Shown: positions 2,164 to 41,883, counted from the stretch's first letter. The stretch: 64,000 nt of DNA from Candidatus Hodarchaeota archaeon (GCA_048886685.1 JBHLKM010000011.1:47115-111114); one strand, 5' to 3'. Numbers and translations: made by a program. Notes: generated by a model not told the origin, from the letters alone.

Positions 2164-2247
2164 TAATTTTTAAATTCAATTTTTTTATAATCAAAAATTA
2201 ATAAAAAAAGAAATTTTAAAAAAACCAAATATTTGGAGGAAATTTAA

Positions 2248-5062: not shown

Positions 5063-5211
5063 ATAATCGCCCATAATATTTATATCTGTACGAAATGTAA
5101 GTCTGCAATGTGTGGGTTGTTTTTCCCTTTTCAACCAATAACTATTAGTACAAATCCCAAATTAATTATTATATAATACTATAAAGAACACTTTAAGAAT
5201 GGTTTTTATCA

Positions 5212-6552
5212 ATGAAGAAAAAGAGAGTAATTATAATTGGTGCTCTTGGAATGGATTTTCATGTTTTTAATACTGTTTTCAGGGATAATGAAGAATATGA
5301 CGTAGTGGCTTTTACTATTGCGGGAGAGCAAAACATTGGTACTACTGAAGAAGCTGAACGAAGATTTCCGGCTAAATTAGCAGGGAAATTATATCCAAAT
5401 GGAATTCCGATGGTATCAGAAGATTTACTCGAAGATTTAATTAAAAAACATAACGTTGATGAGGTTGTTTTCGCGTATTCAGATGTTTCTCATGAAGAAG
5501 TTATGCATAAAGCTTCCAGAGCCCTTGCTGCAGGAGCAAATTATCGATTAATTTCTGGAAGATTCACTCAATTAAAAGCGAATAAACCTGTAGTTGCTAT
5601 ATGTGCAGTAAGAACAGGTTGTGGCAAGAGTCAAGTTTCTCGAGCTACATATCGATATTTAAAGAGTAAAGGATACAAAGTTGTAGCTATTCGCGAGCCA
5701 ATGCCTTATGGTAATTTAATTCAACAAAATGTCATGCGATTCGAAAAATATGAAGATTTAGATAAATACGATTGCACCATTGAAGAGCGTGAAGAATATG
5801 AACCTTATATAAGACAAGGATTAGTAATTTATTCTGGAGTTGACTATGAAAAAATAATAAGAGAAGCAGAAAAAGAATCGGATGTTATTATTTTTGATGG
5901 GGGAAATAATGAGATTTCTTTCTATCTTACGGATTTACTATTCGTTGTTGTCGATCCTTTAAGACCAGGACACGAAAACAAATATCATCCAGGAGAAGTA
6001 AATGCTAAATATGCTGATGTTTTTGTAATTAACAAGATGAATAGTGCGAAACAAGAAGATGTTAAAATTGTGGAAAAAAATCTTGATGAATTAAACCCAA
6101 ATGCTATAAAAGTTTATACTAATTCGTTAGTTAAAGCAGAAGATCCATTAAGATTAAAGGGGAAAAAAGTTGTAGTTGTAGAAGATGGTCCTACTTTAAC
6201 TCATGGAGGGATGTCGATTGGCGCTGCATATGTTGCTGCTAAAAATGCAGAAGCAAAAATAATAGATCCTAGAAAATTTTTGGTGGGATCCATGAAGGAT
6301 GTTTTCGAAGATTTCCCTCAAATAACACAGATTGTACCTGCTATGGGTTACACTGACCAACAAATAGAAGATTTAGAGAAAACACTTAATAATGTGAAAG
6401 CAGATATAATCTTGAATGGAAGTCCTATAGATTTAAACAAATTAGTCAAGGTAAATAAACCAATTGTAAAAGTATCATATGATATCGAATCAATAGGAAG
6501 TCCTACGATTGAAGAATTGCTTGATGATTTTATTAATAAATTCTTAGAATAA
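5212..6552 (+). CDS. arcE: COG2403 P-loop protein, arginine synthetase (ArcE)-like
   Basis: DFH.FN, LAG.LYPNGIP, FAYSDVSHE.VMH.AS, AVRTGCGKSQ, PMPYG, CTIEEREEYEP, DGGNN, EDGPTLTHGGM, PAMGY match Thermococcus ArcE as I recall it; OTC, carbamate kinase and OAT lie nearby. Confidence 0.75.
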   Translation: MKKKRVIIIGALGMDFHVFNTVFRDNEEYDVVAFTIAGEQNIGTTEEAERRFPAKLAGKLYPNGIPMVSEDLLEDLIKKHNVDEVVFAYSDVSHEEVMHKASRALAAGANYRLISGRFTQLKANKPVVAICAVRTGCGKSQVSRATYRYLKSKGYKVVAIREPMPYGNLIQQNVMRFEKYEDLDKYDCTIEEREEYEPYIRQGLVIYSGVDYEKIIREAEKESDVIIFDGGNNEISFYLTDLLFVVVDPLRPGHENKYHPGEVNAKYADVFVINKMNSAKQEDVKIVEKNLDELNPNAIKVYTNSLVKAEDPLRLKGKKVVVVEDGPTLTHGGMSIGAAYVAAKNAEAKIIDPRKFLVGSMKDVFEDFPQITQIVPAMGYTDQQIEDLEKTLNNVKADIILNGSPIDLNKLVKVNKPIVKVSYDIESIGSPTIEELLDDFINKFLE

Positions 6553-6589
6553 TAGTAATTTTTGTTGGTTTATAAGCTGATTAATTTTT

Positions 6590-7093
6590 TTAGCCAGTCG
6601 TTATTTTGTAATGAATGTAAAAAACAAGCCCTATACAAAATACACCAAGATCCATTAATATAGCTCCAAATAATGTACTATACACACCAAGTCCTATGTT
6701 TACAGCATCATCAAAGAGAAGTGGCGTTCCTATAGAATTAGAGTACACGGCAGTCATTGGCCATCCAATGAAGTCTAAAATCCAATGACTAAAAACGAGA
6801 AATCCGATAATTATACTAATTTGATAGACTTCTGCATTCCACATTGATGAATTATTTTTATTTTCTTGGTTTTTTTTTGAATTGAGACGCATTTTAATAA
6901 GTGCCGTTATAATTATCGCTATTATTGACCAAAAAATGCTCATAAACAGCCCATGTGTAATCCATATTGCGAATAAAAATATAAAAGATAATAGATCAAT
7001 AAACATAACACTTATTAACAAAATCCAGAGGGAAACTTGAGGAGTGAAACGCTTTGCTGCTAATCCTATTCCAAAATGAGCTAAAGCAGGCAT
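6590..7093 (-). CDS. Membrane-bound metal-dependent hydrolase-like protein (YdjM-like)
   Basis: Several TM helices with spaced ligands H(AHFG), D(IDLL), H(THG), H..D(SHWILD). Confidence 0.6.
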   Translation of the reverse strand: MPALAHFGIGLAAKRFTPQVSLWILLISVMFIDLLSFIFLFAIWITHGLFMSIFWSIIAIIITALIKMRLNSKKNQENKNNSSMWNAEVYQISIIIGFLVFSHWILDFIGWPMTAVYSNSIGTPLLFDDAVNIGLGVYSTLFGAILMDLGVFCIGLVFYIHYKITTG

Positions 7094-7225
7094 GTGATTT
7101 GAAAGGTTAAAATTATTTATAAAAATTATCTATTCTAAAATTTATTTGAATAATATTTAATTCAAAAGTCTCATTAAATCATCCATAATCTAAAATTTTG
7201 TTTTTAATTTAATAATTAGAACTGA

Positions 7226-9421
7226 ATGGAGCAAAATTCTATGATTTTGGCAGAAAAAAAATATGAAATCTACGAAGTTCAGAAGGGTTATGCTAATAGA
7301 ACCCTGTATATTAATCTTTCTAACAATGAGATTACGATTAAACCTGTTTCTGATGAAATGAAAGATAAATTCATTGGTGGAAAAGGTTTTGATTTGTGGC
7401 TTATGTGGAATTCTCTTCCAAAAGATGGTATAATTAAATGGAATGATCCTGAAAATGAGATTTGCATTTCTTCTGGTCCCTTAGGAGGGAGTATATTTTA
7501 TCCTGGATCAGGGAAGTCACTTGTGACCACAATATCACCATTGACAGGTATTATTGTGGATTCTAATGTTGGAGGTTATTTTGGACCATATCTTAAATTT
7601 TCTGGATTTGATGCATTAGAAATTCAAGGAAAAGCCCAAAAGGATGTTATTATTTATATTGATGGAATGGAAGGATTAGTTCAAATTAATGAAGTTAAAG
7701 ATTCCGATGGTTTCTCAGAATATTCTCATGAACTTACTCAACAATTAACTGAAAAATATGCAAAAGAAGACTCTGAGAAGCGACAGATCTCAGTAGTGAG
7801 CTCTGGTCCTGCCGCCAAGCATTCAAAATGGGGGATGCTTAACTTTTCGTGGTATACAACAACCCGTAAACATGCTTCTGTTAAACAAGCTGGCCGAGGG
7901 GGAATAGGGACCGTGTTTAATTATAAGAATATAAGAGCCCTCGTTTGTCGGGCACCTAAAGTAACAATAAAATCAAATAATCCAGCGGATTTAGATGCTG
8001 CTCGAGAATTAGGAAAAGTTCATAGCAAGGAAATTGTAGATATTGATCCAACTCAAAATGAGATGAGAAGAGTTGGGACGGGTTATTTACCAGATATAAT
8101 GAATGTTGTCGATCTATTACCTGTAGAAAACTTTCGATTTGGATCTCATAAAGAAATCAAAGATAAAAACATACCATTTAATCGTGAGGAGATGCGTACA
8201 GTTTACCATGTTAGAGAAGGAGCAGATGGGTGTTGGATAGGATGTACAATGTCCTGTTCACATTATACTCTTGGGCATAAAGTCATGACTGGCCCATTTA
8301 AAGGTCAAGAAGTAATTGTTGAAGGTCCTGAATATGAAACTATAGCGGGATGTGGTTCAAATTGGGGTGTTTGGGATATTAAATGGGTACTTGAAGTTAA
8401 CTTTTATTGCGACACGTATGGGTTGGATACAATCTCAACTGGTACAGGAATTGGATTTGTAATGGAATGTTATGAAGAAGGAATATTAAACAAAGAAATT
8501 ACAGGAGGACTTGAACTTAATTTTGGAAACGCCGAAGCTGCTTTAGAATTAATTCATCAGATGGCACGTGGGGAAGATTTTGGAGTTGTGGTAGGGCAAG
8601 GAATAAGAGAAATGAAGAAAATTTTTGCTGAGAAATATGGTGGAGACCCTCAATTTCTTCAAGATATAGGAATGGAACACAAGGGTTTGGAATTCTCAGA
8701 ATATATAACAAAAGAATCTCTTGCACAGCAAGGAGGATACGGATTAGCACTTAAAGGCCCTCAACATGATGAAGCATGGCTGATTTTCGAAGATATGGTA
8801 AGAAATACACTTCCTACATTTGAAGATAAAGCAAAGGCTTTACGTTGGTTTCCTTATTGGCGGACATGGTTCGGTTTGAATGGTCTCTGTAAACTACCCT
8901 GGAACGACGCTATCGGACCCCAAAATAAAGATTTGCCAGTAAAAGATCCAGAAACAGGTGAACTACTTCAAGCAAGAATACCATATCATGTTGAGTGGTA
9001 TGCAAAGTTTTTCTTTGCAGTTACTGGAAGGCAATCTACTCCAGGTGATCTTATTAAAATGTCTGAACGAGTCTATAACTTCCAAAGAATATTTAATATT
9101 AGATTAGGTCAGGGTTTACGCGAAGGTGATTCTAATTTGCCTTATAGAGCAATGGGACCTGTCTTACCTTTAGAATATGAAAGCAGATTAGAATTATATG
9201 ACTCTCAATTAAAGGATTTAGGATTTAATATTGAAGGAGAAACAACTAAAGAAAAGATTAAAATCCTCCGAAAACATCGTGAAGAACAATATTCAAAACT
9301 TCAAGATGCAGTTTATAAAGAACGTGGTTGGAACCAAAATGGGTGCCCAAGAATAGAAAAAGTCAAAGAGTTGGGAATAGACTACGATGATGTAATATCT
9401 TTAATAAAACCATATCAATAA
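7226..9421 (+). CDS. aor: Tungsten-containing aldehyde:ferredoxin oxidoreductase family protein
   Basis: SPLTG...SNVGG.FG, QAGRGGIG, CWIGCTMSC, GPEYET, DTYGLDTIS, GLCK, YKERGW. Confidence 0.9.
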   Translation: MEQNSMILAEKKYEIYEVQKGYANRTLYINLSNNEITIKPVSDEMKDKFIGGKGFDLWLMWNSLPKDGIIKWNDPENEICISSGPLGGSIFYPGSGKSLVTTISPLTGIIVDSNVGGYFGPYLKFSGFDALEIQGKAQKDVIIYIDGMEGLVQINEVKDSDGFSEYSHELTQQLTEKYAKEDSEKRQISVVSSGPAAKHSKWGMLNFSWYTTTRKHASVKQAGRGGIGTVFNYKNIRALVCRAPKVTIKSNNPADLDAARELGKVHSKEIVDIDPTQNEMRRVGTGYLPDIMNVVDLLPVENFRFGSHKEIKDKNIPFNREEMRTVYHVREGADGCWIGCTMSCSHYTLGHKVMTGPFKGQEVIVEGPEYETIAGCGSNWGVWDIKWVLEVNFYCDTYGLDTISTGTGIGFVMECYEEGILNKEITGGLELNFGNAEAALELIHQMARGEDFGVVVGQGIREMKKIFAEKYGGDPQFLQDIGMEHKGLEFSEYITKESLAQQGGYGLALKGPQHDEAWLIFEDMVRNTLPTFEDKAKALRWFPYWRTWFGLNGLCKLPWNDAIGPQNKDLPVKDPETGELLQARIPYHVEWYAKFFFAVTGRQSTPGDLIKMSERVYNFQRIFNIRLGQGLREGDSNLPYRAMGPVLPLEYESRLELYDSQLKDLGFNIEGETTKEKIKILRKHREEQYSKLQDAVYKERGWNQNGCPRIEKVKELGIDYDDVISLIKPYQ

Positions 9422-9456
9422 AAATTAAATTACTTAATTACTAATATAGAATCCAA

Positions 9457-11541
9457 ATGGAGAACATAACCTCCCATCCCATATTGAAAATACCTGAAAG
9501 AAAAAAGGTCAACTTTAGTTTTAACGACAAACAGTTATACGGATATAAAGGAATGGTAATCTCTTCAGCACTTTTTCTTAATAAGATCAAAATTTTTGGA
9601 CATCATGTTAAGGATTCAAGCCCTCAAGGAATTTTTTGCGCAAATGGGCAGTGTTCACAGTGTAATGTCATAGCTAATGGGATTCCGGTTAAAGCATGTA
9701 TGACTTCTCTCAGAGAAGGGATGATTATAGAAAGTTGTAATGGATTGCCAGAATTACCTGCTAAAGATGAACCAGTTAAGATAGGGGATCCTGAGATTAT
9801 TGATCTTGAAGTTCTAGTGATTGGTGCTGGCCCCGCAGGGTTATCTGCAACTAAAATCTTAGGAGAATCTAAACTTGAGGTTTTATTAGTCGATGATAAA
9901 GATAGACTTGGAGGTAAGTTAGTTCTTCAAACTCATAAATTTTTTGGTTCTCAAGAGGATGTTTATGCAGGGAAACGCGGTATTGAAATAGCAGAAATTC
10001 TTGGGCAATCCGTACTTTCATTAGAAAATGTTCAAGTTTGGCTTAATAGTGTGTGTTTAGCAGTTTTTAACGATGGGTATGTTGGAATTCTCAAAAATAA
10101 TAAGGAATATGTATTAGTTAAACCAAATTATCTTCTTGTTGCTACAGGGGCACGTGAAAAGATGTTAGTTTTTCCTGGTAATACTTTACCGGGAGTATAT
10201 GGTGCGGGGGCATTTCAAACATTAGTAAATCGTGATTTAATTAGAGCTGCTGAAAAAGTGTTTATTGTTGGAGGAGGAAATGTTGGTTTAATTGCAGGTT
10301 ATCATGCTATTCAGGCAGGAATCGAAGTTATTGGACTAATTGAAGCAATGCCTCAATGCGGGGGGTATAAGGTTCATGAAGATAAGTTAAGACGATTAGG
10401 TGTTCCTATTTTCACAAATCATACAGTAATCTCTGCAAATGGAGATAATAAAGTTGAGTCTATAACTATTGCTCAGATAAATAATGAATTTAAACCCATA
10501 TCTGGAACTGAAAAAACCTTTTCCTGCGATACTATCTTGATAGCAGTTGGTTTAAATCCAGTTGATGAGTTTTACCAAAAGGCAACGGAATATGGTTTAA
10601 AAGTTTGGGTCGCCGGAGATGCCCAAGAAATAGCAGAAGCTTCTGCAGCAATATTCACGGGTAAAATTGAAGCTTTAAAGATATTAAAAGAGATGGGAAT
10701 TAAAACAGAAGAGGATTTAAAAACCCTTCAGGAAATTTCTGAAGTTATGAAGTCAAAACCTCCACCCCCAATTGATGTAGACTTTACATATAAAGAAGAA
10801 GGTATTTTTCCAGTATTCTATTGTAATCAAGAAATACCTTGCAACCCTTGTACCACAGTATGCCCAAATCAACAGATTGAAACAATTGACAATTTAATTA
10901 CTCAATTGCCTTATTTTAAAGATGATCAAGAATGTATAGGATGTGGTAAATGTGTTGCTGTTTGTCCTGGGTTGGCAGTTGTGTTAAAGGATTACAGAAA
11001 GGATAAAAAAAATCCATCCGTAACGTTTCCTCTCGAACTCACCGAAAAAAGGCTTGAAAAAGGTCAAGAAATTGTTGTTACGAGTAATGATCAAGAATTA
11101 GGTCAATTTGAAGTCTATAGAGCAAGGATTCTAAAAGAATTTCCAAAAACTCAATTAATAACTGTTAAATTACCATCAGAAATAGCAAAACAAGCAGTTG
11201 CCATTAAATTATTTAAAAGCATGTATTCTGAGCCTATTGACATCTATCAAAAAGAATTTACTGATGACGCTACGATTGTTTGTAGATGTGAGCGTGTATC
11301 GGTTGGAGAGATACGTAAATGGATTCGTTCAGGTGTAAAGGATTTTAATGAATTAAAAGCTTTAACCAAAGTTGGAATGGGTGCGTGCGGTGGAAAAACT
11401 TGCACTCCTCTAATTAATAAAATATTTCAAGAGGAAGGTATTTCGATTGATGATATTATTCCTGGAACGAAACGCCCATTATTTATTGAAGTGCCGATGG
11501 GAATTTTTGCTAGTGCTAGAGAAAAAAAGGACTTGATATAA
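9457..11541 (+). CDS. Multidomain FAD/Fe-S oxidoreductase, proline dehydrogenase/sarcosine oxidase alpha-like fusion
   Basis: N-terminal 2Fe-2S (CANGQCSQC...C), GAGPAG and GGGNVG Rossmann motifs, ATGA, 2x4Fe-4S (CNPCTTVC; CIGCGKCVAVCP), C-terminal BFD-like (CRCE...GMGACGGKTC). Confidence 0.85.
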   Translation: MENITSHPILKIPERKKVNFSFNDKQLYGYKGMVISSALFLNKIKIFGHHVKDSSPQGIFCANGQCSQCNVIANGIPVKACMTSLREGMIIESCNGLPELPAKDEPVKIGDPEIIDLEVLVIGAGPAGLSATKILGESKLEVLLVDDKDRLGGKLVLQTHKFFGSQEDVYAGKRGIEIAEILGQSVLSLENVQVWLNSVCLAVFNDGYVGILKNNKEYVLVKPNYLLVATGAREKMLVFPGNTLPGVYGAGAFQTLVNRDLIRAAEKVFIVGGGNVGLIAGYHAIQAGIEVIGLIEAMPQCGGYKVHEDKLRRLGVPIFTNHTVISANGDNKVESITIAQINNEFKPISGTEKTFSCDTILIAVGLNPVDEFYQKATEYGLKVWVAGDAQEIAEASAAIFTGKIEALKILKEMGIKTEEDLKTLQEISEVMKSKPPPPIDVDFTYKEEGIFPVFYCNQEIPCNPCTTVCPNQQIETIDNLITQLPYFKDDQECIGCGKCVAVCPGLAVVLKDYRKDKKNPSVTFPLELTEKRLEKGQEIVVTSNDQELGQFEVYRARILKEFPKTQLITVKLPSEIAKQAVAIKLFKSMYSEPIDIYQKEFTDDATIVCRCERVSVGEIRKWIRSGVKDFNELKALTKVGMGACGGKTCTPLINKIFQEEGISIDDIIPGTKRPLFIEVPMGIFASAREKKDLI

Positions 11542-11543
11542 CA

Positions 11544-12710
11544 ATGGTTGAATATGATGTAATTATCATAGGGGCTGGCAGCGTTGGTGTACCAACAGCT
11601 TTAGCAGGTGCAAATGATGGCCTTCGAATACTAGTTCTCGATTTATTACCTTCAGTTGCTCAAGGGGATAATAAACACGCAATAGGAGGAATCCGAGCGA
11701 CTCATTCCCACATAGGGAAAGCCTTACTTTGTCAAAGATCGATAGAGATCTTTTCTACATGGGAAGAAAAGTATGGGGATGATATTTGGTGGCATCAAGG
11801 GGGATATACTTTTTTAGCTTTTACGGAAGAAGATGAGAAAATGCTAAAAGATACCGTAAAACTCCAAAAAAAAAATGGTTTAAATATAAATTTTGTTGAT
11901 ACTGAGAAAATTAAAGAAATTATACCAGGGATTAATGATGATGGGTTATTAGGAGGAACATATAGTCCCGAAGATGGGAATGCTTCACCCTTATTATCTT
12001 TACATGCATTTTTTCGCCAGTCAAAAGAATTAGGTGCTGAATATCACTTTAATGAAAAAGTTAATAATATAATTATAAAAAAAGATAAAATTAGGGGAGT
12101 TAAAACAACCAAATCAAAATATAAAACTAATTTTGTTATTAATGCTGCTGGTGCTCATGCTAAACATATAGGTGCCATGGTTGGTGTCAATTTCCCCGTT
12201 GATCCTGAGTCTCATGAAGCAGGTATTACTGAACCTGTTAAAAAATTCTTTTCACCAATGGTGGTTGACGTTCGACCGTTTGTTGATGAAAAATTTGGAG
12301 GTTCTAAAAATTATTACTTTTATCAAAATGATGAAGGAAAGATATTATTTTGTTTGACCCCCAATCCAAACATTTTTGGTATTGACCGTAGAGAAACTAG
12401 CTCGTTTTTACCTCAAATTTCAAAAAGAATGGTTAAGCTTTTGCCTCGTTTAAGGAATTTAAAAATTAGAAGAACATGGCGCGGTTTATACCCAATGACG
12501 GTAGATGGGAATCCAATTGTAGGTAAGATTGATGAGGTAGATGGATATATTAACGCTATTGGAATGTGTGGGCAGGGTTTCATGTTAGGACCTGGTTTAG
12601 GAGAACTTATAGGTCGACTTCTAAATCAAAAATTGAACTCTCAAGACCATGAAATTTTAAAGAGTTTATCCTATAAACGTGAATATTTTAAAGAAGAAGT
12701 ATTAAAATAG
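11544..12710 (+). CDS. FAD-dependent amino-acid dehydrogenase, DAO/sarcosine oxidase beta/proline dehydrogenase beta family
   Basis: IIIGAGSVG, NAAG, RTWRGLYPMT.DG.P, GMCGQGFMLGPG; starts 2 nt after the alpha-like gene. Confidence 0.85.
   Translation: MVEYDVIIIGAGSVGVPTALAGANDGLRILVLDLLPSVAQGDNKHAIGGIRATHSHIGKALLCQRSIEIFSTWEEKYGDDIWWHQGGYTFLAFTEEDEKMLKDTVKLQKKNGLNINFVDTEKIKEIIPGINDDGLLGGTYSPEDGNASPLLSLHAFFRQSKELGAEYHFNEKVNNIIIKKDKIRGVKTTKSKYKTNFVINAAGAHAKHIGAMVGVNFPVDPESHEAGITEPVKKFFSPMVVDVRPFVDEKFGGSKNYYFYQNDEGKILFCLTPNPNIFGIDRRETSSFLPQISKRMVKLLPRLRNLKIRRTWRGLYPMTVDGNPIVGKIDEVDGYINAIGMCGQGFMLGPGLGELIGRLLNQKLNSQDHEILKSLSYKREYFKEEVLK
12184..12608 (+). repeat. Copy 1 of a 425-bp direct repeat (3' half of the FAD oxidoreductase gene)
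   Basis: Aligns without gaps to 13734-14158 (offset 1550); I counted about 24 mismatches by eye. Confidence 0.95.
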
Positions 12711-13094: not shown

Positions 13095-13216
13095 TTCTAC
13101 TCACATTCCAACTAATAATATCTGCTTATTAAAATTCATTAGGTAAGATTTGTTTTTATAATTAATGCTTAATTGGTAAGTATTTAATTCATATAATGAT
13201 TAATCCAAATAAGAGA

Positions 13217-13422
13217 ATGGAATTTGGTTCACTAATAAAAAATGGAATAGCTCTCGATAAAACCGGAAAACCAGATTATATGGGAGACCTTATAGTTTCT
13301 ATTCGAAACCAATCTTGGAAGGTATAAAAGATCCTTTTGATTTCTTCTTCGAAGAAAATTATGATTTTGACAGTTTAAGGAGGATCAAACAAGAAATTTT
13401 AGAAAAATATTTAAAATCTTGA
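13217..13422 (+). pseudogene. Highly degraded remnant of an N-acyl-D-amino-acid deacylase (amidohydrolase) gene
   Basis: MEFGSLIKNGIALDKTGKPDYMGDL resembles MNFDILVKNGKIIDGAGNPGY*ADI at 14279; a second frame carries KDPFDFFF. Confidence 0.45.
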
Positions 13423-13506
13423 ATTTATTTGATTCATTAATTATTAACTATAATTTAAGGAATTTAACATTATATATAATTAAAAACACTGAAAATGCGA
13501 TAAATT

Positions 13507-13733
13507 ATGGTTAGACATTTACTTAAAATATCAGATCTTTCGAGGTCAGAATGTGAACTTATTATAAATAAAGCAATAGATATTAAAAAAAGTCCTAACA
13601 AATATTATAAATCTCTCGAGCATGAAACACTTCTAATGTTATTCGAAAAACCATCTTTAAGAACACGTATCTCATTTGAAACTGGAATGCAACAATTAGG
13701 GGGTCATGCTATTTTTTACTCGATTAAAGATTC
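13507..13733 (+). pseudogene. 5' fragment of a second ornithine carbamoyltransferase, broken at codon ~76
   Basis: MVRHLLK...FEKPSLRTRISFETGMQQLGGHAIFYSIKDS is nearly identical in protein to 15776-16003; it then joins abruptly to oxidoreductase sequence. Confidence 0.85.
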
Positions 13734-14260
13734 GTGTCAATTTACCCGTTGATCCTGAGTCTCATGAAGCAGGTATTACAGAACTTGTTAAAAAATTCTT
13801 TTCACCAATGGTAGTTGACATTCGACCGTGTGTTGATGAAAAATTTGGAGATTCTAAAAATTATTACTTTTATCAAAATAAGGAAGGAAAGATATCATTT
13901 TGTTTGACCCCTAATCCAAATATTATTGGTATTGACCGTAGAGAAACTAGCTCATTTTTACCTCAAATTTCAAAAAGAATGGTTAACCTTTTGCCCCGTT
14001 TAAGGAATTTAAAAATTAGAAGAACATGGCGCGGTCTATACCCTATGACGGCAGATGGCAATACAATTCTAGGTAAGATTGATGAGGTAGATGGATATAT
14101 TAACGCTATTGGAATGTGTGGGCAGGGTTTCATGATAGGACCTGGATTAGGAGAACTTTTAAGTCGCCTTTTAACAGAAAAAACATCCAGTAGTGATAGA
14201 GAAATTTTAGATAGTCTTTCATCTACTCGAGATTTTGGTATAATAGAAGAATTAAAATAA
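13734..14260 (+). pseudogene. 3' half of a duplicated FAD oxidoreductase (repeat copy 2), lacking the FAD-binding N-terminus
   Basis: About 94% nucleotide identity to 12184-12608, then a different C-terminal tail; no GxGxxG. Confidence 0.85.
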
Positions 14261-14278
14261 AAATGGCGAATATTTAAA

Positions 14279-14506
14279 ATGAATTTTGATATATTAGTAA
14301 AAAATGGAAAAATTATCGATGGTGCAGGAAATCCCGGATATTGAGCTGATATTGGAATAAAAAACGGCAACATAGTGAAAATTCACCCAAAATTAGATGT
14401 TCATACAGCAAAAGAAGTAATTAATGCTTCAGACATGATTATATGTTCTGGGTTTATTGATATGCATTCCCACACCGATGTTATCGGTGCTTTTATTTCA
14501 GAATGA
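14279..14506 (+). pseudogene. Truncated N-acyl-D-amino-acid deacylase/amidohydrolase
   Basis: MNFDILVKNGKIIDGAGNPGY*ADIGIKNGNIVKI...INASDMIICSGFIDMHSHTD...*. Has the HxH metal motif, an in-frame TGA at 14342, and ends after 75 codons. Confidence 0.85.
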
Positions 14507-14609
14507 GTTAAGATTTGCCAATGGTCAGGAGTATCAAAATTAAATTAGCTCGCTGCACAAAAATGTAAATAACTTTTAATATTCAATTTCACTAATAATT
14601 AGGAGAACA

Positions 14610-15680
14610 ATGAGTTTTGAAAATTTATTATTAGGAATTACAACTTTTATTGCAGGTTCATTATCACTAACTAATGGAATACTTACATATGTTTATGCAA
14701 GAAGAAGAAAGAATCGTGTTATATTTTTGTTTTCAGCAAATTGGTTTCTTCAAGCAATATTCTGGTATCTGGATGGTACAGCTCATTTAACTTATACTCC
14801 TTTAATTATGGCAATCTCATTTATCCCACACACTTTAGGGGTGCTATTTCTCTTTACCTATATAGAGCTTATTGAAAAAGAAAATGTAAGTTCTTTAAAA
14901 GTTACATTCTTAGTTATTATTGAATTGTTGTTTGTATCTTTAGCATTTCTTCCAGGTGGAATGGAAGTTATTCCTGATTATGGTGTTCATATCATTGGGC
15001 TCTGTAGAATATTTCAAATTATTTTCCTTATCATCTATGTTTTCTACTATTTTACTTGGAGTTATAAAACATGGAGGAGATCCCCTAATGAATTAAGAAA
15101 AAAAGCATCACTTCTATTATTAGGAAGCGCATTATTTTCTATTGTAACAGTTTTGATGTATGTAGTTGGAACCCTCGTAAAAATATTCAATCCTCTTGGA
15201 TTTGTTGTCCATGGAATTGGAGCTTTGATTACTGTAATAGTAATCTGGCAGGAACCAAAACTCATATACGTATTACGTTTTAAGGCATACAGGCTCATTG
15301 TATTGGAAACAGGTAGCGGTACTGCCCTATATAAACATGATTGGGCAGAATTAAGAAATATTGACGAAAATTTCTTTTCTATGATGCTTCAAGCAATAAG
15401 TAATGTGTTGAATGAGCTTCTTCACAAGGGGGAAGTCCGTGAAGTTCATACAGATCAAGCAGTTCTTCTTATCCAACATAATGTTCAATATCCAATTGCT
15501 TCTGTGTTAGTAGCTTCAAAATCATGCAAATCGTTAAGATATGGTTTAAAGGAATTCAATGAACAATTCGTAACAAAATTTTCTTCAGACATTGAGATTA
15601 GTTACCAAAATGTCAGTAGATTTAATGATGCAATTATCTTAGTTAATAAAATTTTTGATTTTGTACCAGAATATAAATAG
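14610..15680 (+). CDS. 7-TM membrane protein with a C-terminal longin-like domain
   Basis: Seven hydrophobic helices in aa ~5-215, then LIVLETGSGTALY...DENFFSMMLQAIS...EVREV...VLV...L..F...F, a longin-like pattern. Confidence 0.65.
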   Translation: MSFENLLLGITTFIAGSLSLTNGILTYVYARRRKNRVIFLFSANWFLQAIFWYLDGTAHLTYTPLIMAISFIPHTLGVLFLFTYIELIEKENVSSLKVTFLVIIELLFVSLAFLPGGMEVIPDYGVHIIGLCRIFQIIFLIIYVFYYFTWSYKTWRRSPNELRKKASLLLLGSALFSIVTVLMYVVGTLVKIFNPLGFVVHGIGALITVIVIWQEPKLIYVLRFKAYRLIVLETGSGTALYKHDWAELRNIDENFFSMMLQAISNVLNELLHKGEVREVHTDQAVLLIQHNVQYPIASVLVASKSCKSLRYGLKEFNEQFVTKFSSDIEISYQNVSRFNDAIILVNKIFDFVPEYK

Positions 15681-15775
15681 TAGATTTTCGGCAGTAATTG
15701 AGTTCTTATTTAATTTATATCTAATCTTTCTTTCTATTATTATAATTATTTCTAATAATTTCAAATTGAATAAAA

Positions 15776-16708
15776 ATGGTAAGGCATCTATTAAAAGTCT
15801 CTGATTTTTCAAAAGAAGAATGTAAAAGAGTTATTAGTAAATCTATTGAAATTAAGAAAAATCCTAAAAAATATGATAAAGAATTAGAAGGAGAAACTCT
15901 TTTAATGCTATTTGAAAAACCTTCACTGAGAACCCGAATTTCTTTTGAAACAGGTATGCAACAATTGGGTGGACATGCTATATTCTATTCAATCAAAGAT
16001 TCCCCTTTGGGTAAAAAAGAAAACATTAGTGATACAGCTAAAGTCGCATCAAGATTTGTCAACATAATAGCTGCTCGTGTCTTTAAAAGGCAAGATATTA
16101 GGGCTCTTGCAAAATATGCCGATGTTCCTGTTATTAACATGCTTGATGATTTTGCGCATCCATGTCAGATTCTTGGGGATTTTCAAACAATCAAAGAAAA
16201 GAAGGGAAGTCTTGATAACTTTAAATTATCCTATTTTGGAGATGCTAATAATAATGTTACCTATGACCTAATGAGGATGTGTGCAATGTTTGGTTTAAGA
16301 ATGGATGTTACTTGCCCTATTAATCCTGAATATTCACCTGAACAAATTGTTATAGATGAAGTATCAGAACTCTCCAAAGATAATGAGGCTGAAATAAAAG
16401 TAGTTCATGATGCACTTGAAGCTGCCAAAGATGCCGATGTGATATATACTGATAGTTGGATGAGTTATGGAATACCAGCAGAGCAAGAAGAAGAGCGAAA
16501 AAAAGCTTTTATGCCCTATCAAGTTACCTCTTCAATTATGCAAGCGGCTAAGCCAAACGCAATTTTTATGAATTGTTTGCCTGCAATGCGAGAATATGAA
16601 CAAACAGCTGATGTTATTGACGGACCACTATCAATTGTATTTGATCAGGCCGAAAATCGTCTACATATACAAAAAGCAATTATGCTCTTTTTACGAGAGA
16701 AATTTTAA
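15776..16708 (+). CDS. argF: Ornithine carbamoyltransferase, probably catabolic
   Basis: KPSLRTR, HPCQ, GDANNNVTYDLMR, YTDSWMSYG, MNCLPA, AENRLH. Confidence 0.92.
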   Translation: MVRHLLKVSDFSKEECKRVISKSIEIKKNPKKYDKELEGETLLMLFEKPSLRTRISFETGMQQLGGHAIFYSIKDSPLGKKENISDTAKVASRFVNIIAARVFKRQDIRALAKYADVPVINMLDDFAHPCQILGDFQTIKEKKGSLDNFKLSYFGDANNNVTYDLMRMCAMFGLRMDVTCPINPEYSPEQIVIDEVSELSKDNEAEIKVVHDALEAAKDADVIYTDSWMSYGIPAEQEEERKKAFMPYQVTSSIMQAAKPNAIFMNCLPAMREYEQTADVIDGPLSIVFDQAENRLHIQKAIMLFLREKF

Positions 16709-16730
16709 AAAGTCTATCTTATCCACTTAT

Positions 16731-16776
16731 ACTTCTTCGTGACGAGATGGTGCGCCGTCTGCAGAACAAGAGAAGT
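16731..16776 (+). other. GC-rich intergenic hairpin, candidate structured RNA
   Basis: ACTTCT pairs with AGAAGT; AGATGG-TGCG-CCGTCT forms the apical stem-loop; GA is opposed to GA internally. Confidence 0.35.
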
Positions 16777-16939
16777 TCCCACCAGGAATGCCTAGTCAAG
16801 ATTTCATAGAATATAGATTTGGAACTATTCCATCTAATTATACTAAAATAGGATTTTTCTGAGAAAAATTTTAAATAATAAGTTAAATATTATCTATTTT
16901 TCCTTTACTTTTGTGTAATTTTATCTAGAGGTTTATTAA

Positions 16940-17854
16940 TTGAAAACATTGATTGTAGCACTGGGCGGGAATGCGCTAATCAAGTTTGGTGATGAAGGGA
17001 CAACAGAAGAACAATTTCGAAACTTACGAGTACCAATTAGTCAAATTGCGAAATTAGCAAAAGAATATAATATAATTATAACTCATGGTAATGGACCACA
17101 AGTAGGCAATCTCTTACTACAACAAGAAGCCACTCAAGCTGTTTCAAAAAGGCCATTACAAATTCTCGTAGCAGAGACGCAAGGTCAGATTGGTTTTATG
17201 ATAGAATCCACTCTAGATGAAGAATTAATGAAAATTGGTCTTGATGAAGAAAAACTCTTTCTTACTGTTCTTACATATGTGAAGGTGGACGCTGAAGACC
17301 CAGCATTTTTGAATCCAACTAAACCTATTGGCCCCGCTTATGATGTTCCAAAACCGGGATATGTGAAAACTGCAAAAGGTTATCGACGTGTAGTTCCATC
17401 GCCTAAACCTATTAAAATTTACCAGTGGCGTGAAATAAAAAAATTAATGGAATTAGGGAGTTGGATTGTAATCGCTTGCGGAGGTGGTGGTATTCCTGTA
17501 ATAAAAGAAAAAAAGAAATTATATGGGGTAGAAGCTGTAATTGATAAAGACCTAGCGAGCGCTAAATTAGCTGAACAAATTAATGCCGACATTTTATTAA
17601 TAGCAACCGATGTTGAAAAAGTTTCTCTTAATTATGGGACCTCAGACCAACAAGAATTAGACAAATTATCAATCTCTGAAGCAAAAAGGTATTTAGAAGA
17701 AAATCAATTCCCAGCAGGAAGTATGGGCCCAAAAATTCAAGCTGTAATAAATTTTTTGGAATCAGGTGGAGAAAAAGCAATAATAACGTCTATTGATAAA
17801 ATAATAGAAGCTTTAGATGGAACAGCGGGAACACACATTCATTCAAGTAATTAA
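16940..17854 (+). CDS. arcC: Carbamate kinase
   Basis: VALGGNAL, THGNGPQVG, PTKPIGP, RRVVPSP, CGGGGIPV, EAVIDKD, GSMGPK. Confidence 0.95.
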   Translation: MKTLIVALGGNALIKFGDEGTTEEQFRNLRVPISQIAKLAKEYNIIITHGNGPQVGNLLLQQEATQAVSKRPLQILVAETQGQIGFMIESTLDEELMKIGLDEEKLFLTVLTYVKVDAEDPAFLNPTKPIGPAYDVPKPGYVKTAKGYRRVVPSPKPIKIYQWREIKKLMELGSWIVIACGGGGIPVIKEKKKLYGVEAVIDKDLASAKLAEQINADILLIATDVEKVSLNYGTSDQQELDKLSISEAKRYLEENQFPAGSMGPKIQAVINFLESGGEKAIITSIDKIIEALDGTAGTHIHSSN

Positions 17855-17901
17855 ATTACACAATAAAATTTTTGAAAATATGAACCTTATAAAGATTTGA
17901 A

Positions 17902-18282
17902 ATGAATGAAATTAAAAATCTTATTGAGGACTTAGGAATTGCGGCATTGGAGGCCAATACAAAAATTGCTAGGATCGCAGTTGTCTCTGATTCAGGAAAT
18001 ATAATTTTCCAGACAGAAAATTTTGATCTAACCAATCAAACAAAAATTATATCTGATGTCATTAAGGGTATCCGCTCTTTTGTTTTTAATAATATAGAAT
18101 TTTCGGTTGATGAAACTAACACTGAAGGAATTATAGGTACAAACGATGGTGGTATGGGGCATCTAATTTTCATTCCTTTTCAAGGAGGTGTGCTTGTAGC
18201 ATATGCCATGCCTAAAGCAGATCCAATGAAAGCATTATTATTTCTAAAAGATTATGCGAGTAAATTGAATGGGAAGATATAA
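17902..18282 (+). CDS. Asgard-type profilin
   Basis: IAVVSDSGNIIFQTENF, IIGTNDGGMGHLIFIP, GVLVAYAMPKADP and LKDYASKL match Lokiarchaeal profilin motifs as I recall them (IAIIG.DG.II.QTENW, IGTN..GKGHV, P.AGP). Confidence 0.75.
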   Translation: MNEIKNLIEDLGIAALEANTKIARIAVVSDSGNIIFQTENFDLTNQTKIISDVIKGIRSFVFNNIEFSVDETNTEGIIGTNDGGMGHLIFIPFQGGVLVAYAMPKADPMKALLFLKDYASKLNGKI

Positions 18283-18435
18283 TTTAAAATTTAATAAAAT
18301 TAGTAGAATTCAATAATATTCTTTTATTTTTGTTTCTCTCTAACGATAATATATATTGAAAAAATAACGATTATAGTTCCAAATAAATGGAATAAGGTAA
18401 AAACTTCGCCAAGAATTAACCTGGAAAACTGAAAT

Positions 18436-19695
18436 TTACTTGATCAATACTTTTTCAATAATTTCAATAGCCCAATCAATTTCTTCTCGAGTAATTACTA
18501 AGGGGGGGGCAAACCTAATTGTTGTAGAATGAGTATCTTTTGCTAAAATTCCATTGTCTTTTAATTCTTCAACAATTTGTCTTGCATCTTCAGTAAATTC
18601 TACAGCCACAAGTAGTCCTTTACCTCTTACATCTTTGATTGGAATTTTCGTTCTTTTTTCTGCAATTTCCTTAAGTCTCTTAATAAAGTAAGATCCCATC
18701 TCTTTTGATCGCTCAGCAAGATTCTCACGTAAATGAATGTCTATAGATTTCATTGCAACTGCACATGCTAAAGGATTTCCCCCAAATGTGCTTCCATGAG
18801 TTCCAGGTTTAATTACATCTGGTCCTATAATATCTTTAGTTGTAACACATGCAGAAACGGGATAAACGCCACCCCCCAGAGCTTTACCTAATAACAACAT
18901 GTCTGGTTTTACATTTTCATGATCACAGGCAAAAAGTTCACCAGTTCGACAAAAACCAGTTTGAATTTCATCTAACACCATCAAAATATTATATTTAGTA
19001 CAAATATCTCTAACTTTCTTCAAAAATCCTTCTGGAGGGACATTTACACCAGCTTCTCCTTGTATAGGTTCAAATAAAAAAGCAGCTACTTTTTCGGGTC
19101 CAGTTTCTAAAATAATATTCTCCAATTCTTCAGCGTCTCCGTAAGGTATCATAATAAATCCCGGAGTATATGGGCCAAAATTTCCATAATAACGAACTGC
19201 TGAAATATCGGAACTAAAGCCAACAATAGTTATTGTCCTACCATGAAAATTATTTCGACATACAATAATTTTAGCTTCATTTTTAGGGATTTTTTTCTTA
19301 ATATAACCCCAAGCTCTTGCCATTTTTAAACCTGTAGATACTGCTTCTGTTCCAGTGTTCATTGGAATGCTCATTATCCCAGAATTTGTTGGATCGTTGA
19401 TGTGTGGACCTACAACTTCAGCTAGCATTTTTAAAAAAGGTCCCATTAAATCATTATGAAAGGCTCGAGAAGTTAAGGTAACGATATCTGCTTGTTCTTT
19501 TAAAGCTGCGACAATTTCAGGATGACAATGACCAGTATTCTGGCTTGAATATGCTGATAAACAGTCCAAATATTTATTACCTTCTGGATCATACACCCAA
19601 ACTCCTTCTGCTCGGGAAATTACAACGGGAATAGGATGATAATTATGAGCACAATATTTCAAATCCATTTCAATATAATCTTTTGATGTTGGCAT
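18436..19695 (-). CDS. rocD: Ornithine--oxo-acid aminotransferase
   Basis: AHNYHPIPVV, DCLSAYS, GHCHP, LTSRAF, PMNTGTEA, FHGRT, EPIQGEAGV, DEIQTG, LLGKALGGG, HGSTFGGNP. Confidence 0.92.
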   Translation of the reverse strand: MPTSKDYIEMDLKYCAHNYHPIPVVISRAEGVWVYDPEGNKYLDCLSAYSSQNTGHCHPEIVAALKEQADIVTLTSRAFHNDLMGPFLKMLAEVVGPHINDPTNSGIMSIPMNTGTEAVSTGLKMARAWGYIKKKIPKNEAKIIVCRNNFHGRTITIVGFSSDISAVRYYGNFGPYTPGFIMIPYGDAEELENIILETGPEKVAAFLFEPIQGEAGVNVPPEGFLKKVRDICTKYNILMVLDEIQTGFCRTGELFACDHENVKPDMLLLGKALGGGVYPVSACVTTKDIIGPDVIKPGTHGSTFGGNPLACAVAMKSIDIHLRENLAERSKEMGSYFIKRLKEIAEKRTKIPIKDVRGKGLLVAVEFTEDARQIVEELKDNGILAKDTHSTTIRFAPPLVITREEIDWAIEIIEKVLIK

Positions 19696-23513: not shown

Positions 23514-23514
23514 T

Positions 23515-25104: not shown

Positions 25105-25139
25105 TTATCTCACTTTTTTTTAATAAAAATTCTAAAAAT

Positions 25140-26174: not shown

Positions 26175-26282
26175 TTTCTCCCCAAAAGAAATATTATACT
26201 CATTAGTAAATGATATAAAACGTAATTATTTAAATTTTGAATATAAATTATCAAATACAATACTAATTATTTGCTATACTAA

Positions 26283-41866: not shown

Positions 41867-41883
41867 TCACTTCTATTTAATCA

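What the first reader, a model, noticed from the sequence alone, without database searches (positions are those of the whole stretch)
5212..19695. Arginine-synthetase (ArcE)-type energy-conserving arginine catabolism in an Asgard archaeon
Seen: an ArcE/COG2403 homologue (5212), OTC (15776), carbamate kinase (16940) and ornithine aminotransferase (18436) lie within 15 kb, and the window has no arginine deiminase. Known: Thermococcus ArcE reversibly converts arginine + ADP + Pi to citrulline + NH3 + ATP, replacing deiminase, so with OTC and carbamate kinase the route gives 2 ATP per arginine. Inference: this organism ferments arginine by that route and passes ornithine to glutamate semialdehyde through RocD. 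Automated pipelines would probably label 5212 as a 'GTPase' or 'cDPG synthetase' and miss the pathway.
Basis: partly seen in the sequence, partly recalled or inferred. Interest (0 to 1): 0.82.

Follow-up and report, generated by a model that had tools for sequence, protein, structure and literature searches.

The report
Loki-type Asgard arginine synthetase island
This Asgard archaeon has the recently discovered two-ATP route for breaking down arginine, inside a conserved gene island that also handles ornithine and proline; the route is already known, but its key enzyme here is a divergent form whose nearest relatives include proteins of single-celled eukaryotes.

Summary

- **Key gene.** Gene 5212-6552 belongs to the ArcE (arginine synthetase, TK2200) family and is not a cDPG synthetase. 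It is 56% identical over its full length (523 bits) to a Thermococcus protein that carries both TK2200 termini. It scores only 25 bits against solved cDPGS, and a rooted tree separates the two families (100/100).
- **Pathway genes.** OTC, carbamate kinase and ornithine aminotransferase all pass curated cut-offs.
- **Missing alternatives.** The genome (100% complete, 8.4% contamination) has no arcA, argG, argH, argC, proA or proB above cut-off, and no arginase. It does have CPS.
- **Synteny.** The order ArcE–AOR–proline-dehydrogenase-like pair–OTC–CK, with OAT convergent, is conserved across the organism's family and one sister-family genome. The other sister-family genome examined has a tight ArcE–OTC–CK–OAT cluster.
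- **Phylum sample (200 genomes).** ArcE was found in 167, arcC in 150 and argG in 35. No genome had a bona fide arcA.

Catabolic direction is inferred, not shown. This ArcE belongs to a divergent subclade (R14M, H162E, W228F, one insertion) that groups with Creolimax and a probable protist protein.

Michimori et al. 2024 already note arcE in Lokiarchaeota. This scan found the same island earlier on other genomes.

The parts
5212..6552 (+). arcE: arginine synthetase family protein (446 aa), divergent Loki-order/eukaryote-linked subclade
   Evidence: 56% identity and 523 bits over 440 aa to Thermococcus ArcE P0404/P0280. Only 25 bits to cDPGS 9sxb. Lies in the ArcE clade of the rooted tree. Walker A R134-T-G-C-G-K-S. 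AF2 model pLDDT 92, with best folds cDPGS 8ORK and LpxK 4EHY. Single copy in the genome.
6590..7093 (-). 167-aa ORF of unknown function between arcE and AOR; present only in same-genus relatives
   Evidence: No Pfam hit. tblastn finds it in G131, G176 and G191 but not in other genera.
7226..9421 (+). AOR-family tungsten/molybdopterin aldehyde:ferredoxin oxidoreductase (731 aa); proposed glutamate-semialdehyde oxidase (inference)
   Evidence: AFOR_N and AFOR_C Pfam domains. Best PDB hits are P. furiosus AOR 1aor (190 bits) and FOR 1b25 (162 bits). Conserved position directly after arcE in 12 genomes.
9457..11541 (+). Fe-S flavoprotein (694 aa), alpha-like subunit of a proline-dehydrogenase/sarcosine-oxidase-type complex
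   Evidence: Fer2_4, Pyr_redox_2, 4Fe-4S and BFD domains. PDB 2gag_A 73.6 bits and 1y56_A (PH1363) 72.3 bits. Conserved position.
11544..12710 (+). FAD dehydrogenase (388 aa), beta-like catalytic subunit; probable L-proline dehydrogenase
   Evidence: DAO Pfam 200.7 bits. Best PDB hit 1y56_B at 192 bits, against 88 bits or less for true sarcosine oxidases. Conserved position.
13507..14260 (+). chimeric gene remnant: first 76 codons of an OTC joined to the last ~176 codons of the DAO gene; looks like a tandem-duplication scar
   Evidence: Pfam OTCace_N positions 1-78 and DAO positions 220-352. 80% and 82% aa identity to the intact copies. Direct repeats D1 and D2. Absent from relatives, where DAO and OTC are adjacent.
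14610..15680 (+). 356-aa ORF with no family match, inserted between DAO and OTC; specific to this genome, not part of the conserved island
   Evidence: No Pfam or NCBIfam hit. No tblastn or blastn match in the 20 related loci.
15776..16708 (+). arcB/argF: ornithine carbamoyltransferase (310 aa)
   Evidence: TIGR00658 361 bits (cut-off 281). Putrescine carbamoyltransferase scores only 283 bits against a 500-bit cut-off. Conserved position.
16940..17854 (+). arcC: carbamate kinase (304 aa, TTG start)
   Evidence: TIGR00746 372.6 bits (cut-off 358). Single copy in the genome at C11:64057-64956. Conserved position.
17902..18282 (+). 126-aa ORF of unknown function; not conserved in relatives
   Evidence: No family hit. 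No match in related loci.
18436..19695 (-). rocD: ornithine--oxo-acid aminotransferase (419 aa), convergent on arcC
   Evidence: TIGR01885 527 bits (cut-off 378). Adjacent to CK in all 13 own-order loci; co-directional ArcE-OTC-CK-OAT in G093.

Best explanation
The locus is a Loki-type Asgard version of the arginine synthetase pathway. Inferred by homology to T. kodakarensis TK2200: ArcE (5212-6552) converts arginine + ADP + Pi to citrulline + NH3 + ATP. Assigned by curated family models: OTC phosphorolyses citrulline to ornithine + carbamoyl phosphate, and carbamate kinase makes a second ATP. OAT then passes ornithine to glutamate 5-semialdehyde/P5C. The genes conserved between arcE and arcB suggest a common sink. 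A PDH1-like proline dehydrogenase would feed proline into the same P5C pool. The AOR-family tungstoenzyme would oxidise the semialdehyde to glutamate while reducing ferredoxin; this last step is inference only. Shown here: family membership, gene content, absence of alternative enzymes, and conserved synteny. Inferred: activity, direction of flux, ATP yield, and the AOR substrate.
For: 1. Orthology. P0001 is 56% identical, 77% similar and scores 523 bits over 440 aa to P0404 (T. peptonophilus). P0404 has both TK2200 termini deduced from the published primers and belongs to a 90%-identity cluster spanning Thermococcus and Palaeococcus.
2. Not cDPGS. The score against solved cDPGS is 25 bits. 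In the tree cDPGS and ArcE are separated at 100/100. Thermococcales carry both paralogues. No cDPGS was found in the window's genome.
3. Fold. pLDDT is 92. The best matches are cDPGS and LpxK 4EHY, the latter being the neighbour reported for TK2200.
4. Partners pass curated cut-offs.
5. No alternative Arg-Cit enzyme. arcA, PF02274 and argG are absent, the argH-like hit is purB, and the arginase-family hit is agmatinase-like.
6. Catabolic context. CPS is present, so CK is not needed to make carbamoyl phosphate. argC, proA and proB were not found, so there is no de novo ornithine. Neighbours include a lysine-fermentation cluster, a second AOR, an ACS and a peptidase.
7. Synteny. ArcE-AOR-PDHa-PDHb-OTC-CK/OAT is found in 12 genomes. 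G093 has ArcE-OTC-CK-OAT with gaps of 87-148 nt. ArcE and CK are 54 bp apart in family f16.
8. Co-occurrence in family f1. Both genes present in 22 genomes, both absent in 13, discordant in 5.
9. A CK-ArcE fusion protein exists elsewhere (P0128).
Against: No enzyme assay exists for any Asgard ArcE. The Loki-order clade replaces residues that are 80-91% conserved in the rest of the family: R14->M/Y/F, H162->E, W228->F and D234->E, plus a 5-aa insertion. By analogy with cDPGS, these could lie near the substrate site. The ArcE reaction is near equilibrium (PMC11032458). The genome lacks argG/argH yet has CPS, so a biosynthetic or bidirectional role is not excluded. In family f1, ArcE and argG are nearly complementary. 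No arginine transporter or arginine/ornithine antiporter was identified in the island. The AOR substrate is unsupported by any direct evidence, and two generic aldehyde dehydrogenases exist elsewhere in the genome. The assembly has 8.4% estimated contamination, although the synteny with same-genus genomes argues that this contig is native.
Confidence: 0.78

Rival explanations
1. ArcE works mainly in the synthetic direction here. Citrulline made by OTC from ornithine and CPS-derived carbamoyl phosphate is aminated with NH3 and ATP to arginine, replacing the missing ArgG/ArgH.
For: No argG and no argH in a genome scored 100% complete. A full CPS large subunit is present. In family f1, 9 of 12 argG-positive genomes lack ArcE and 21 of 28 argG-negative genomes have it. 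Three g3 genomes (G128, G146, G179) have argC and the ArcE island but no argG. Michimori et al. raise this possibility for organisms with CPS, ornithine synthesis, ArcB and ArcE but no ArgG/H.
Against: The window's genus has no argC, proA or proB above cut-off, so ornithine cannot be made from glutamate. Carbamate kinase is kept in the island and is lost together with ArcE. Three f1 genomes (G070, G134, G185) and families f19 and f16 have argG as well as ArcE and CK. The island is embedded among catabolic genes.
Confidence: 0.12
2. The divergent Loki-order ArcE has changed substrate and acts on another guanidino or ureido compound rather than arginine/citrulline.
For: Coordinated replacement of several otherwise highly conserved residues flanking the Walker B-like DGGN motif and in the N-terminal motif, plus an insertion. 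[quoted passage not shown]
Against: The neighbours define the intermediates. The carbamoyltransferase scores as OTC, not putrescine carbamoyltransferase. An ornithine-specific aminotransferase is always adjacent, and G093 has ArcE-OTC-CK-OAT as one tight co-directional cluster. No other arginine-to-citrulline enzyme exists to feed OTC.
Confidence: 0.05
3. The main role is supplying carbamoyl phosphate for pyrimidine synthesis and [NiFe]-hydrogenase maturation, as shown for T. kodakarensis in 2026, rather than energy gain.
For: This role is demonstrated genetically in T. kodakarensis (PMC13260591). ArcE occurs without CK in some Asgard families: f3 has ArcE in 4/4 genomes and CK in 0/4.
Against: That role applies to Thermococcales that lack CPS. 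This genome has a full-length CPS large subunit at 1453 bits, and it retains CK in the island.
Confidence: 0.04
4. The gene is a cyclic 2,3-diphosphoglycerate synthetase or a generic GTPase, as public annotations say.
For: Source names. A weak cobW match (19 bits, below cut-off). The best structural neighbour is cDPGS.
Against: Only 25 bits and about 19% identity to solved cDPGS. True cDPGS proteins carry Pfam PF27272, whereas the ArcE-type proteins do not. The two families sit on opposite sides of a 100/100 branch. Thermococcales encode both as separate paralogues.
Confidence: 0.01

Closest known systems
Arginine synthetase pathway of Thermococcus kodakarensis: ArcE TK2200, ArcB TK0871, ArcC TK2158 (Michimori, Yokooji, Atomi 2024, PMC11032458; Michimori et al. 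2026, PMC13260591)
   Same: The same three enzymes are present. ArcE is 56% identical to a near-TK2200 Thermococcus protein, with the same length, the same P-loop and the same LpxK-like fold. arcA is absent. The paper itself lists Lokiarchaeota among lineages with arcE homologues.
   Different: In T. kodakarensis the three genes are dispersed (TK2200, TK0871, TK2158) and CPS is absent. Here the genes form a conserved island with OAT, an AOR and a proline-dehydrogenase-like pair, and CPS is present. This ArcE belongs to a separate subclade with non-conservative changes at R14, H162 and W228 and an insertion. No member of that subclade has been assayed.
Cyclic 2,3-diphosphoglycerate synthetase (M. 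fervidus 8ORK/8ORU; 9sxb; Pfam PF27272; PMC10690619)
   Same: A distant homologue with the same two-domain architecture (N-terminal domain plus LpxK-like P-loop domain). It is the best Foldseek match (E = 4e-18).
   Different: About 19% identity and 25 bits. It is a separate clade and a separate Pfam family with a different substrate. It coexists with ArcE as a paralogue in Thermococcales and is absent from this genome.
Classical arginine deiminase (ADI) pathway, arcABC
   Same: The same OTC and carbamate kinase steps, with the same net conversion of arginine to ornithine, CO2 and 2 NH3.
   Different: The hydrolytic deiminase ArcA is absent from this genome and from all 200 sampled genomes of the phylum at the curated cut-off. 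It is replaced by an ATP-forming P-loop enzyme, giving an expected yield of 2 ATP rather than 1.
Pyrococcus horikoshii L-proline dehydrogenase PDH1 (PDB 1Y56) and P. furiosus AOR/FOR tungstoenzymes (1AOR, 1B25)
   Same: The beta-like subunit scores 192 bits to 1y56_B. The AOR-family protein scores 190 bits to AOR and 162 bits to FOR.
   Different: The alpha-like subunit here carries extra 2Fe-2S, 4Fe-4S and BFD domains and matches PH1363 only weakly (72 bits). The tungstoenzyme is longer (731 aa against about 605-620 aa), and its substrate is unknown. In the literature held here I found no description of these genes linked with arcE/arcB/arcC.

Membership tests
ArcE / arginine synthetase (TK2200 family) | Full-length sequence homology to the characterised T. 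kodakarensis enzyme | tested here: met
   56% identity, 77% positives, 523 bits over 440 of 446 aa to P0404, which carries both TK2200 termini (MAEKKKKRVLI......KNCEKLKK) deduced from published primers. TK2200 itself could not be fetched.
ArcE / arginine synthetase (TK2200 family) | Falls in the ArcE clade, apart from cDPG synthetases, in a rooted tree | tested here: met
   The cDPGS clade and the ArcE clade are each supported at 100/100. The window protein is nested among ArcE-type sequences.
ArcE / arginine synthetase (TK2200 family) | P-loop (Walker A) nucleotide site in an LpxK-like core fold | tested here: met
   R134-T-G-C-G-K-S is conserved. AF2 model pLDDT 92. Foldseek finds LpxK 4EHY at E = 4e-8, the same neighbour reported for TK2200.
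ArcE / arginine synthetase (TK2200 family) | Retention of all strongly conserved family residues | tested here: inconclusive
   Most are kept. R14, H162, W228, F111 and D234, which are 80-91% conserved elsewhere and present in Thermococcales, are replaced throughout the Loki order, and a 5-aa insertion is added. Their roles are unknown because no ArcE structure has been solved.
ArcE / arginine synthetase (TK2200 family) | Co-occurrence with arcB and arcC in a genome lacking arcA | tested here: met
   OTC and CK lie 9-10 kb downstream on the same strand, and there is no arcA or ADI superfamily member in the genome. Synteny and co-loss are seen in relatives.
ArcE / arginine synthetase (TK2200 family) | Catalyses Arg + ADP + Pi <-> Cit + NH3 + ATP | not testable with these tools
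   Requires an enzyme assay.
Cyclic 2,3-diphosphoglycerate synthetase (PF27272) | Significant sequence match to characterised cDPGS or to the PF27272 profile | tested here: not met
   25 bits to 9sxb. The precomputed Pfam column shows PF27272 on true cDPGS but none or cobW on the Asgard and Thermococcales ArcE-type proteins. PF27272 is not in the local Pfam library, so no direct hmmscan was possible.
Arginine deiminase pathway (arcABC) | Presence of arginine deiminase ArcA | tested here: not met
   TIGR01078 and PF02274 give no match in the genome. 0 of 200 phylum genomes score over the cut-off.
PDH1-type L-proline dehydrogenase | Beta (catalytic) and alpha subunits homologous to P. horikoshii PH1364/PH1363, encoded side by side | tested here: inconclusive
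   The beta subunit is clear: 192 bits to 1y56_B against 88 bits or less for sarcosine oxidases. The alpha subunit scores only 72 bits and has extra Fe-S domains. Substrate not testable.

The most novel reading that the evidence does not exclude
The Loki-order ArcE is a distinct, functionally modified lineage that is specifically related to ArcE of unicellular eukaryotes (Creolimax and a tetraspanin-linked protist contig) rather than to ArcE of other Asgard families. This would imply gene exchange, or shared inheritance, between Loki-type archaea and eukaryotes for an ATP-yielding arginine pathway. In these archaea ArcE is wired into a seven-gene island in which a tungsten AOR replaces NAD-dependent P5C dehydrogenase, so that arginine and proline oxidation deliver electrons to ferredoxin.
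Probability: 0.3. Interest if true: 0.75.

Novelty: new variant of a known kind. Interest (0 to 1): 0.55.

Why it matters
Asgard archaea are the closest known prokaryotic relatives of eukaryotes, and the cultured ones live by syntrophic amino-acid fermentation. If the island works as proposed, arginine gives these energy-limited cells two substrate-level ATP instead of one. Ornithine and proline carbon would then enter glutamate through a ferredoxin-linked step that can drive H2 or formate transfer to partners.

The survey adds three points.
- ArcE is the rule in the phylum (167 of 200 sampled genomes), while arginine deiminase was not found at all.
- Public annotation systematically mislabels the gene as cDPG synthase or GTPase, so metabolic reconstructions of Asgard genomes probably miss the pathway.
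- The Loki-order enzyme forms a separate clade with eukaryotic sequences and has altered conserved residues, which makes it a worthwhile target for biochemistry.

Tried and rejected
- **Fetching TK2200 by exact primer match in genome contigs.** The primer dTK2200inF gave no hit, and a P. chitonophagus CPS primer used as a Thermococcales anchor also gave no hit. I solved this instead with a 43-aa bait made of the primer-derived N-terminus plus the family motif.
- **Guessing Thermococcales members by amino-acid composition.** This, together with the listing of cluster members and the look-up of encoding contigs on representatives, led nowhere.
- **Supplement of the PNAS paper.** It is not held.
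- **ESM Atlas.** It returned only 'putative GTPase' clusters and holds no structure.
- **Direct PF27272 search.** This was impossible because the family is not in the local Pfam library. A protein query was used instead.
- **Provenance of P0121.** The look-up of encoding contigs closed before I could examine its contig, so the origin of that 655-aa sister sequence is unknown.
- **Were the OTC'/DAO' fragments the native alleles?** They are no closer to relatives than the intact genes are.
- **Residue-level placement of R14/H162/W228.** I could not place them relative to the active site because model coordinates are not exposed.
- **Rejected readings.** cDPGS and GTPase, and arginase (the family hit is agmatinase-like).


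Full report
**What is there.** The stretch 5212-19695 holds these ORFs:
- a 446-aa protein (5212-6552, +);
- a 731-aa AOR-family tungstoenzyme (7226-9421, +);
- a 694-aa Fe-S flavoprotein (9457-11541, +);
- a 388-aa DAO-family dehydrogenase (11544-12710, +);
- OTC (15776-16708, +);
- carbamate kinase (16940-17854, +, TTG start);
- ornithine aminotransferase (18436-19695, -).

OTC, CK and OAT each exceed the curated NCBIfam equivalog cut-offs: 361 against 281, 372.6 against 358, and 527 against 378 bits. The carbamoyltransferase scores as OTC and not as putrescine carbamoyltransferase (283 bits against a 500-bit cut-off). The first protein has no curated family; its only match is a sub-threshold cobW hit. 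Sources name its near-identical relatives in public data 'predicted GTPase' or 'cyclic 2,3-diphosphoglycerate synthase', from MAGs labelled Promethearchaeota, Lokiarchaeota and other Asgard names. The window lies on contig C11 of a 4.42-Mb assembly scored 100% complete with 8.4% contamination.

**Is 5212-6552 an ArcE?** Michimori et al. (PMC11032458) identified TK2200 of T. kodakarensis as arginine synthetase. It catalyses Arg + ADP + Pi <-> Cit + NH3 + ATP, with a ΔG°' of about -6.8 kJ/mol in the citrulline- and ATP-forming direction. The paper states that homologues occur in Lokiarchaeota and that cDPG synthetases are only distant relatives.

I could not fetch TK2200 by exact primer match. 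The primers in the 2026 follow-up paper do give its termini: MAEKKKKRVLI... and ...KNCEKLKK. A short bait built from that N-terminus plus the family motif retrieved named Thermococcales proteins. One of them, P0404 (T. peptonophilus, 448 aa), carries both termini exactly. It sits in a 90%-identity cluster of 201 members spanning Thermococcus and Palaeococcus.

The window protein is 56% identical and 77% similar to P0404 over 440 residues, at 523 bits. Against solved cDPGS it scores 25 bits. Genuine cDPG synthetases carry their own Pfam family, PF27272, in the precomputed annotation. They coexist with ArcE-type paralogues in P. furiosus, P. horikoshii, T. chitonophagus and Palaeococcus pacificus. 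In maximum-likelihood trees rooted on cDPGS, the two families are separated by a long branch with 100/100 support, and the window protein is nested in the ArcE side. The window's genome has a single ArcE-type gene and no cDPGS.

An AlphaFold model built from a 47-sequence alignment is confident (pLDDT 92, pTM 0.90). Its best structural neighbours are cDPGS (19% identity) and then LpxK 4EHY, the same neighbour reported for TK2200.

**What else can the genome do with arginine?**
- No arcA (TIGR01078) and no member of the wider ADI Pfam family.
- No argG.
- The only argH-like hit is purB, at 449 bits against a 326-bit cut-off.
- No argC.
- The better arginase-family hit is agmatinase-like (165 bits), not arginase (88 bits against a 228-bit cut-off).
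- proA and proB were not found above cut-off in ten genomes of the genus, this one included.
- A full CPS large subunit is present at 1453 bits.
- proC and an OCD-family gene are present, plus two generic aldehyde dehydrogenases that reach no equivalog cut-off.

ArcE is therefore the only candidate enzyme linking arginine and citrulline. Ornithine cannot be made de novo from glutamate, and CK is not needed to supply carbamoyl phosphate. Together these favour catabolic use.

**Conservation.** I sampled 200 genomes of the phylum.
- ArcE-type genes occur in 167 (69 of 84 high-quality genomes).
- Carbamate kinase occurs in 150, of which 133 score over the cut-off.
- argG occurs in only 35.
- arcA scores over the cut-off in none.

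Within the organism's own family (40 genomes), ArcE and CK are both present in 22, both absent in 13 and discordant in 5. argG is present in 12, and 9 of those lack ArcE.

I fetched 20-kb stretches around ArcE from 20 genomes and mapped the window's proteins onto them. The order ArcE-AOR-Fe-S flavoprotein-DAO-OTC-CK, with OAT convergent, is kept in all eleven family members examined (four genera) and in one sister-family genome. It is often a compact block of about 11 kb. Another sister-family genome (G093) has ArcE-OTC-CK-OAT co-directional with gaps of 87-148 nt. In a different family (f16), ArcE and CK are 54 bp apart. In families f5, f7, f13 and f19, ArcE stands alone.

Elsewhere in the protein universe a carbamate kinase-ArcE fusion exists: P0128, whose kinase part scores 314 bits against a 266-bit subfamily cut-off. 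The clustering criterion is therefore met.

**The extra genes.** The DAO-family protein's best solved relative is chain B of 1Y56, at 192 bits against 88 bits or less for true sarcosine oxidases. To my knowledge 1Y56 is the P. horikoshii L-proline dehydrogenase PDH1 complex. The larger subunit weakly matches the partner chain PH1363 and carries extra Fe-S domains. The tungstoenzyme is closest to P. furiosus AOR and FOR.

A coherent reading follows. Proline (through the dehydrogenase) and arginine (through ornithine and OAT) converge on P5C/glutamate semialdehyde, and the AOR-type enzyme oxidises that aldehyde to glutamate with ferredoxin. The AOR step is inference only. The genome also has two generic NAD(P) aldehyde dehydrogenases.

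The rest of the window fits an amino-acid fermentation lifestyle. It holds lysine 2,3- and 5,6-aminomutases, a BKACE enzyme, a CoA-transferase, a second AOR, an Fe-ADH, an ADP-forming acyl-CoA synthetase subunit and an M20 peptidase.

**A divergent ArcE.** I aligned 20 close Asgard homologues with 35 diverse representatives. The window protein keeps Walker A and nearly all conserved positions. It differs at residues that are 80-91% conserved elsewhere: R14->M, H162->E, W228->F, F111->Y and D234->E, plus a 5-residue insertion at 43-47. The insertion is the only low-confidence block of the model.

Mapping these positions on ArcE from 20 genomes shows that the whole suite is confined to the organism's own order. 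Other Asgard families keep the TK2200-type residues.

The nearest non-Asgard sequences share the derived states in whole or in part. P0132 is from the ichthyosporean Creolimax fragrantissima (EukProt). P0122 lies beside a tetraspanin gene on its contig, and tetraspanins are to my knowledge a characteristically eukaryotic family. In the careful tree, Loki-order ArcE plus P0122, its 655-aa sister P0121 and Creolimax form a clade with 100/97 support. The other Asgard families lie elsewhere, near Thermococcales, Bathyarchaeota and Pseudothermotoga with weak backbone support, and green-algal homologues are separate again.

This agrees with an earlier report of this scan on another genome (e1-5570354). 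Whether it reflects transfer or shared ancestry, and in which direction, is open. The bootstrap had not fully converged, the model was LG+G4, and many rows have deviant composition.

[quoted passage not shown] The changed residues could therefore touch the substrate site. The invariably adjacent OTC and OAT argue that the product is still citrulline.

**Direction and rivals.** The biosynthetic reading is not excluded. The reaction is near equilibrium, argG/argH are missing, CPS is present, and ArcE and argG are nearly complementary within the family. Three g3 genomes have argC and the island but no argG.

Against it, this genus lacks any route from glutamate to ornithine. CK travels with ArcE. 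Several genomes and families carry both argG and ArcE+CK.

The carbamoyl-phosphate-supply role shown in T. kodakarensis (PMC13260591) is less needed here because CPS is present.

I rate the catabolic two-ATP pathway at about 0.78, biosynthesis as the main role at about 0.12, a changed substrate at about 0.05, carbamoyl-phosphate supply at about 0.04, and cDPGS/GTPase at about 0.01.

**Novelty.** The pathway and its enzyme are known (2024), and the paper already mentions Lokiarchaeota. The library held here has no paper that treats ArcE in Asgard archaea beyond that line. Three things appear undescribed in the held literature:
- the phylum-wide prevalence of ArcE with no deiminase;
- the conserved seven-gene island with AOR and the proline-dehydrogenase-like pair;
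- the divergent, eukaryote-linked ArcE subclade.

All three were noted earlier by this scan on other genomes (e1-5570349, e1-5570354). I class the finding as a new variant of a known kind, of moderate interest.

Noticed in passing
window 13507-14260: A chimeric remnant: the first 76 codons of an OTC (80% aa identity to the intact gene) run straight into the last ~176 codons of the DAO gene (82% aa identity; 94% nt identity over 300 nt). The order DAO - OTC' - DAO' - OTC is what a tandem duplication across the DAO/OTC junction would leave. Relatives have DAO and OTC adjacent.
   Followed up: partly
window 22722-32715 (- strand): A lysine fermentation-type cluster: lysine 5,6-aminomutase subunits (OAM_dimer/B12-binding and Lys-AminoMut_A), lysine 2,3-aminomutase, a BKACE beta-keto acid cleavage enzyme, a family III CoA-transferase, a class-III aminotransferase and a methyltransferase. 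KamD and KamE also follow the arginine island in same-genus relatives.
   Followed up: partly
window 14610-15680: A 356-aa ORF with no family match sits between the DAO remnant and OTC. It is absent from all 20 related loci, so it is an insertion specific to this genome. An earlier first-reader note (e1-5575279) reads it as a 7-TM protein with a longin-like tail; I did not test that.
   Followed up: partly
window 4416-5134 (- strand): A PIN-domain protein and a MazE/AbrB-type antitoxin overlap just upstream of arcE: a probable toxin-antitoxin pair.
   Followed up: no
window 328-3438: An ATP-citrate-lyase-like protein (CoA-ligase plus citrate synthase C-terminal domains, 611 aa) is followed by an isocitrate/isopropylmalate dehydrogenase. 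The dehydrogenase is also directly upstream of arcE in genus g3 and in G164.
   Followed up: partly
window 39977-43176 (- strand): A second AOR-family tungstoenzyme (629 aa) lies next to an iron-containing alcohol dehydrogenase.
   Followed up: no
window 51305-57100 (- strand): A very long ORF of 1931 aa; not examined.
   Followed up: no
proteins P0280-P0297 against P0414-P0504 (other genomes): Thermococcales encode both a true cDPG synthetase (PF27272) and ArcE. NCBI nevertheless names many of the ArcE proteins 'cyclic 2,3-diphosphoglycerate synthase', a systematic misannotation that extends to Asgard MAGs.
   Followed up: yes
protein P0128 (766 aa, unnamed Logan contig): A natural fusion of a carbamate kinase (314 bits against a 266-bit subfamily cut-off) to an ArcE domain.
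   Followed up: yes
protein P0183 (806 aa): An ArcE homologue interrupted by an intein with a LAGLIDADG homing-endonuclease domain.
   Followed up: no
genomes G128, G146, G179 (genus g3, same family): These carry argC and the ArcE island but no argG. ArcE might serve arginine biosynthesis there, or the argC hit might be a LysY.
   Followed up: no
genome families f3, f13, f15 of the phylum sample: ArcE is common but carbamate kinase is rare or not found (f3: ArcE 4/4, CK 0/4, argG 4/4, in genomes of 1.3-1.4 Mb). ArcE may have a different role there.
   Followed up: no
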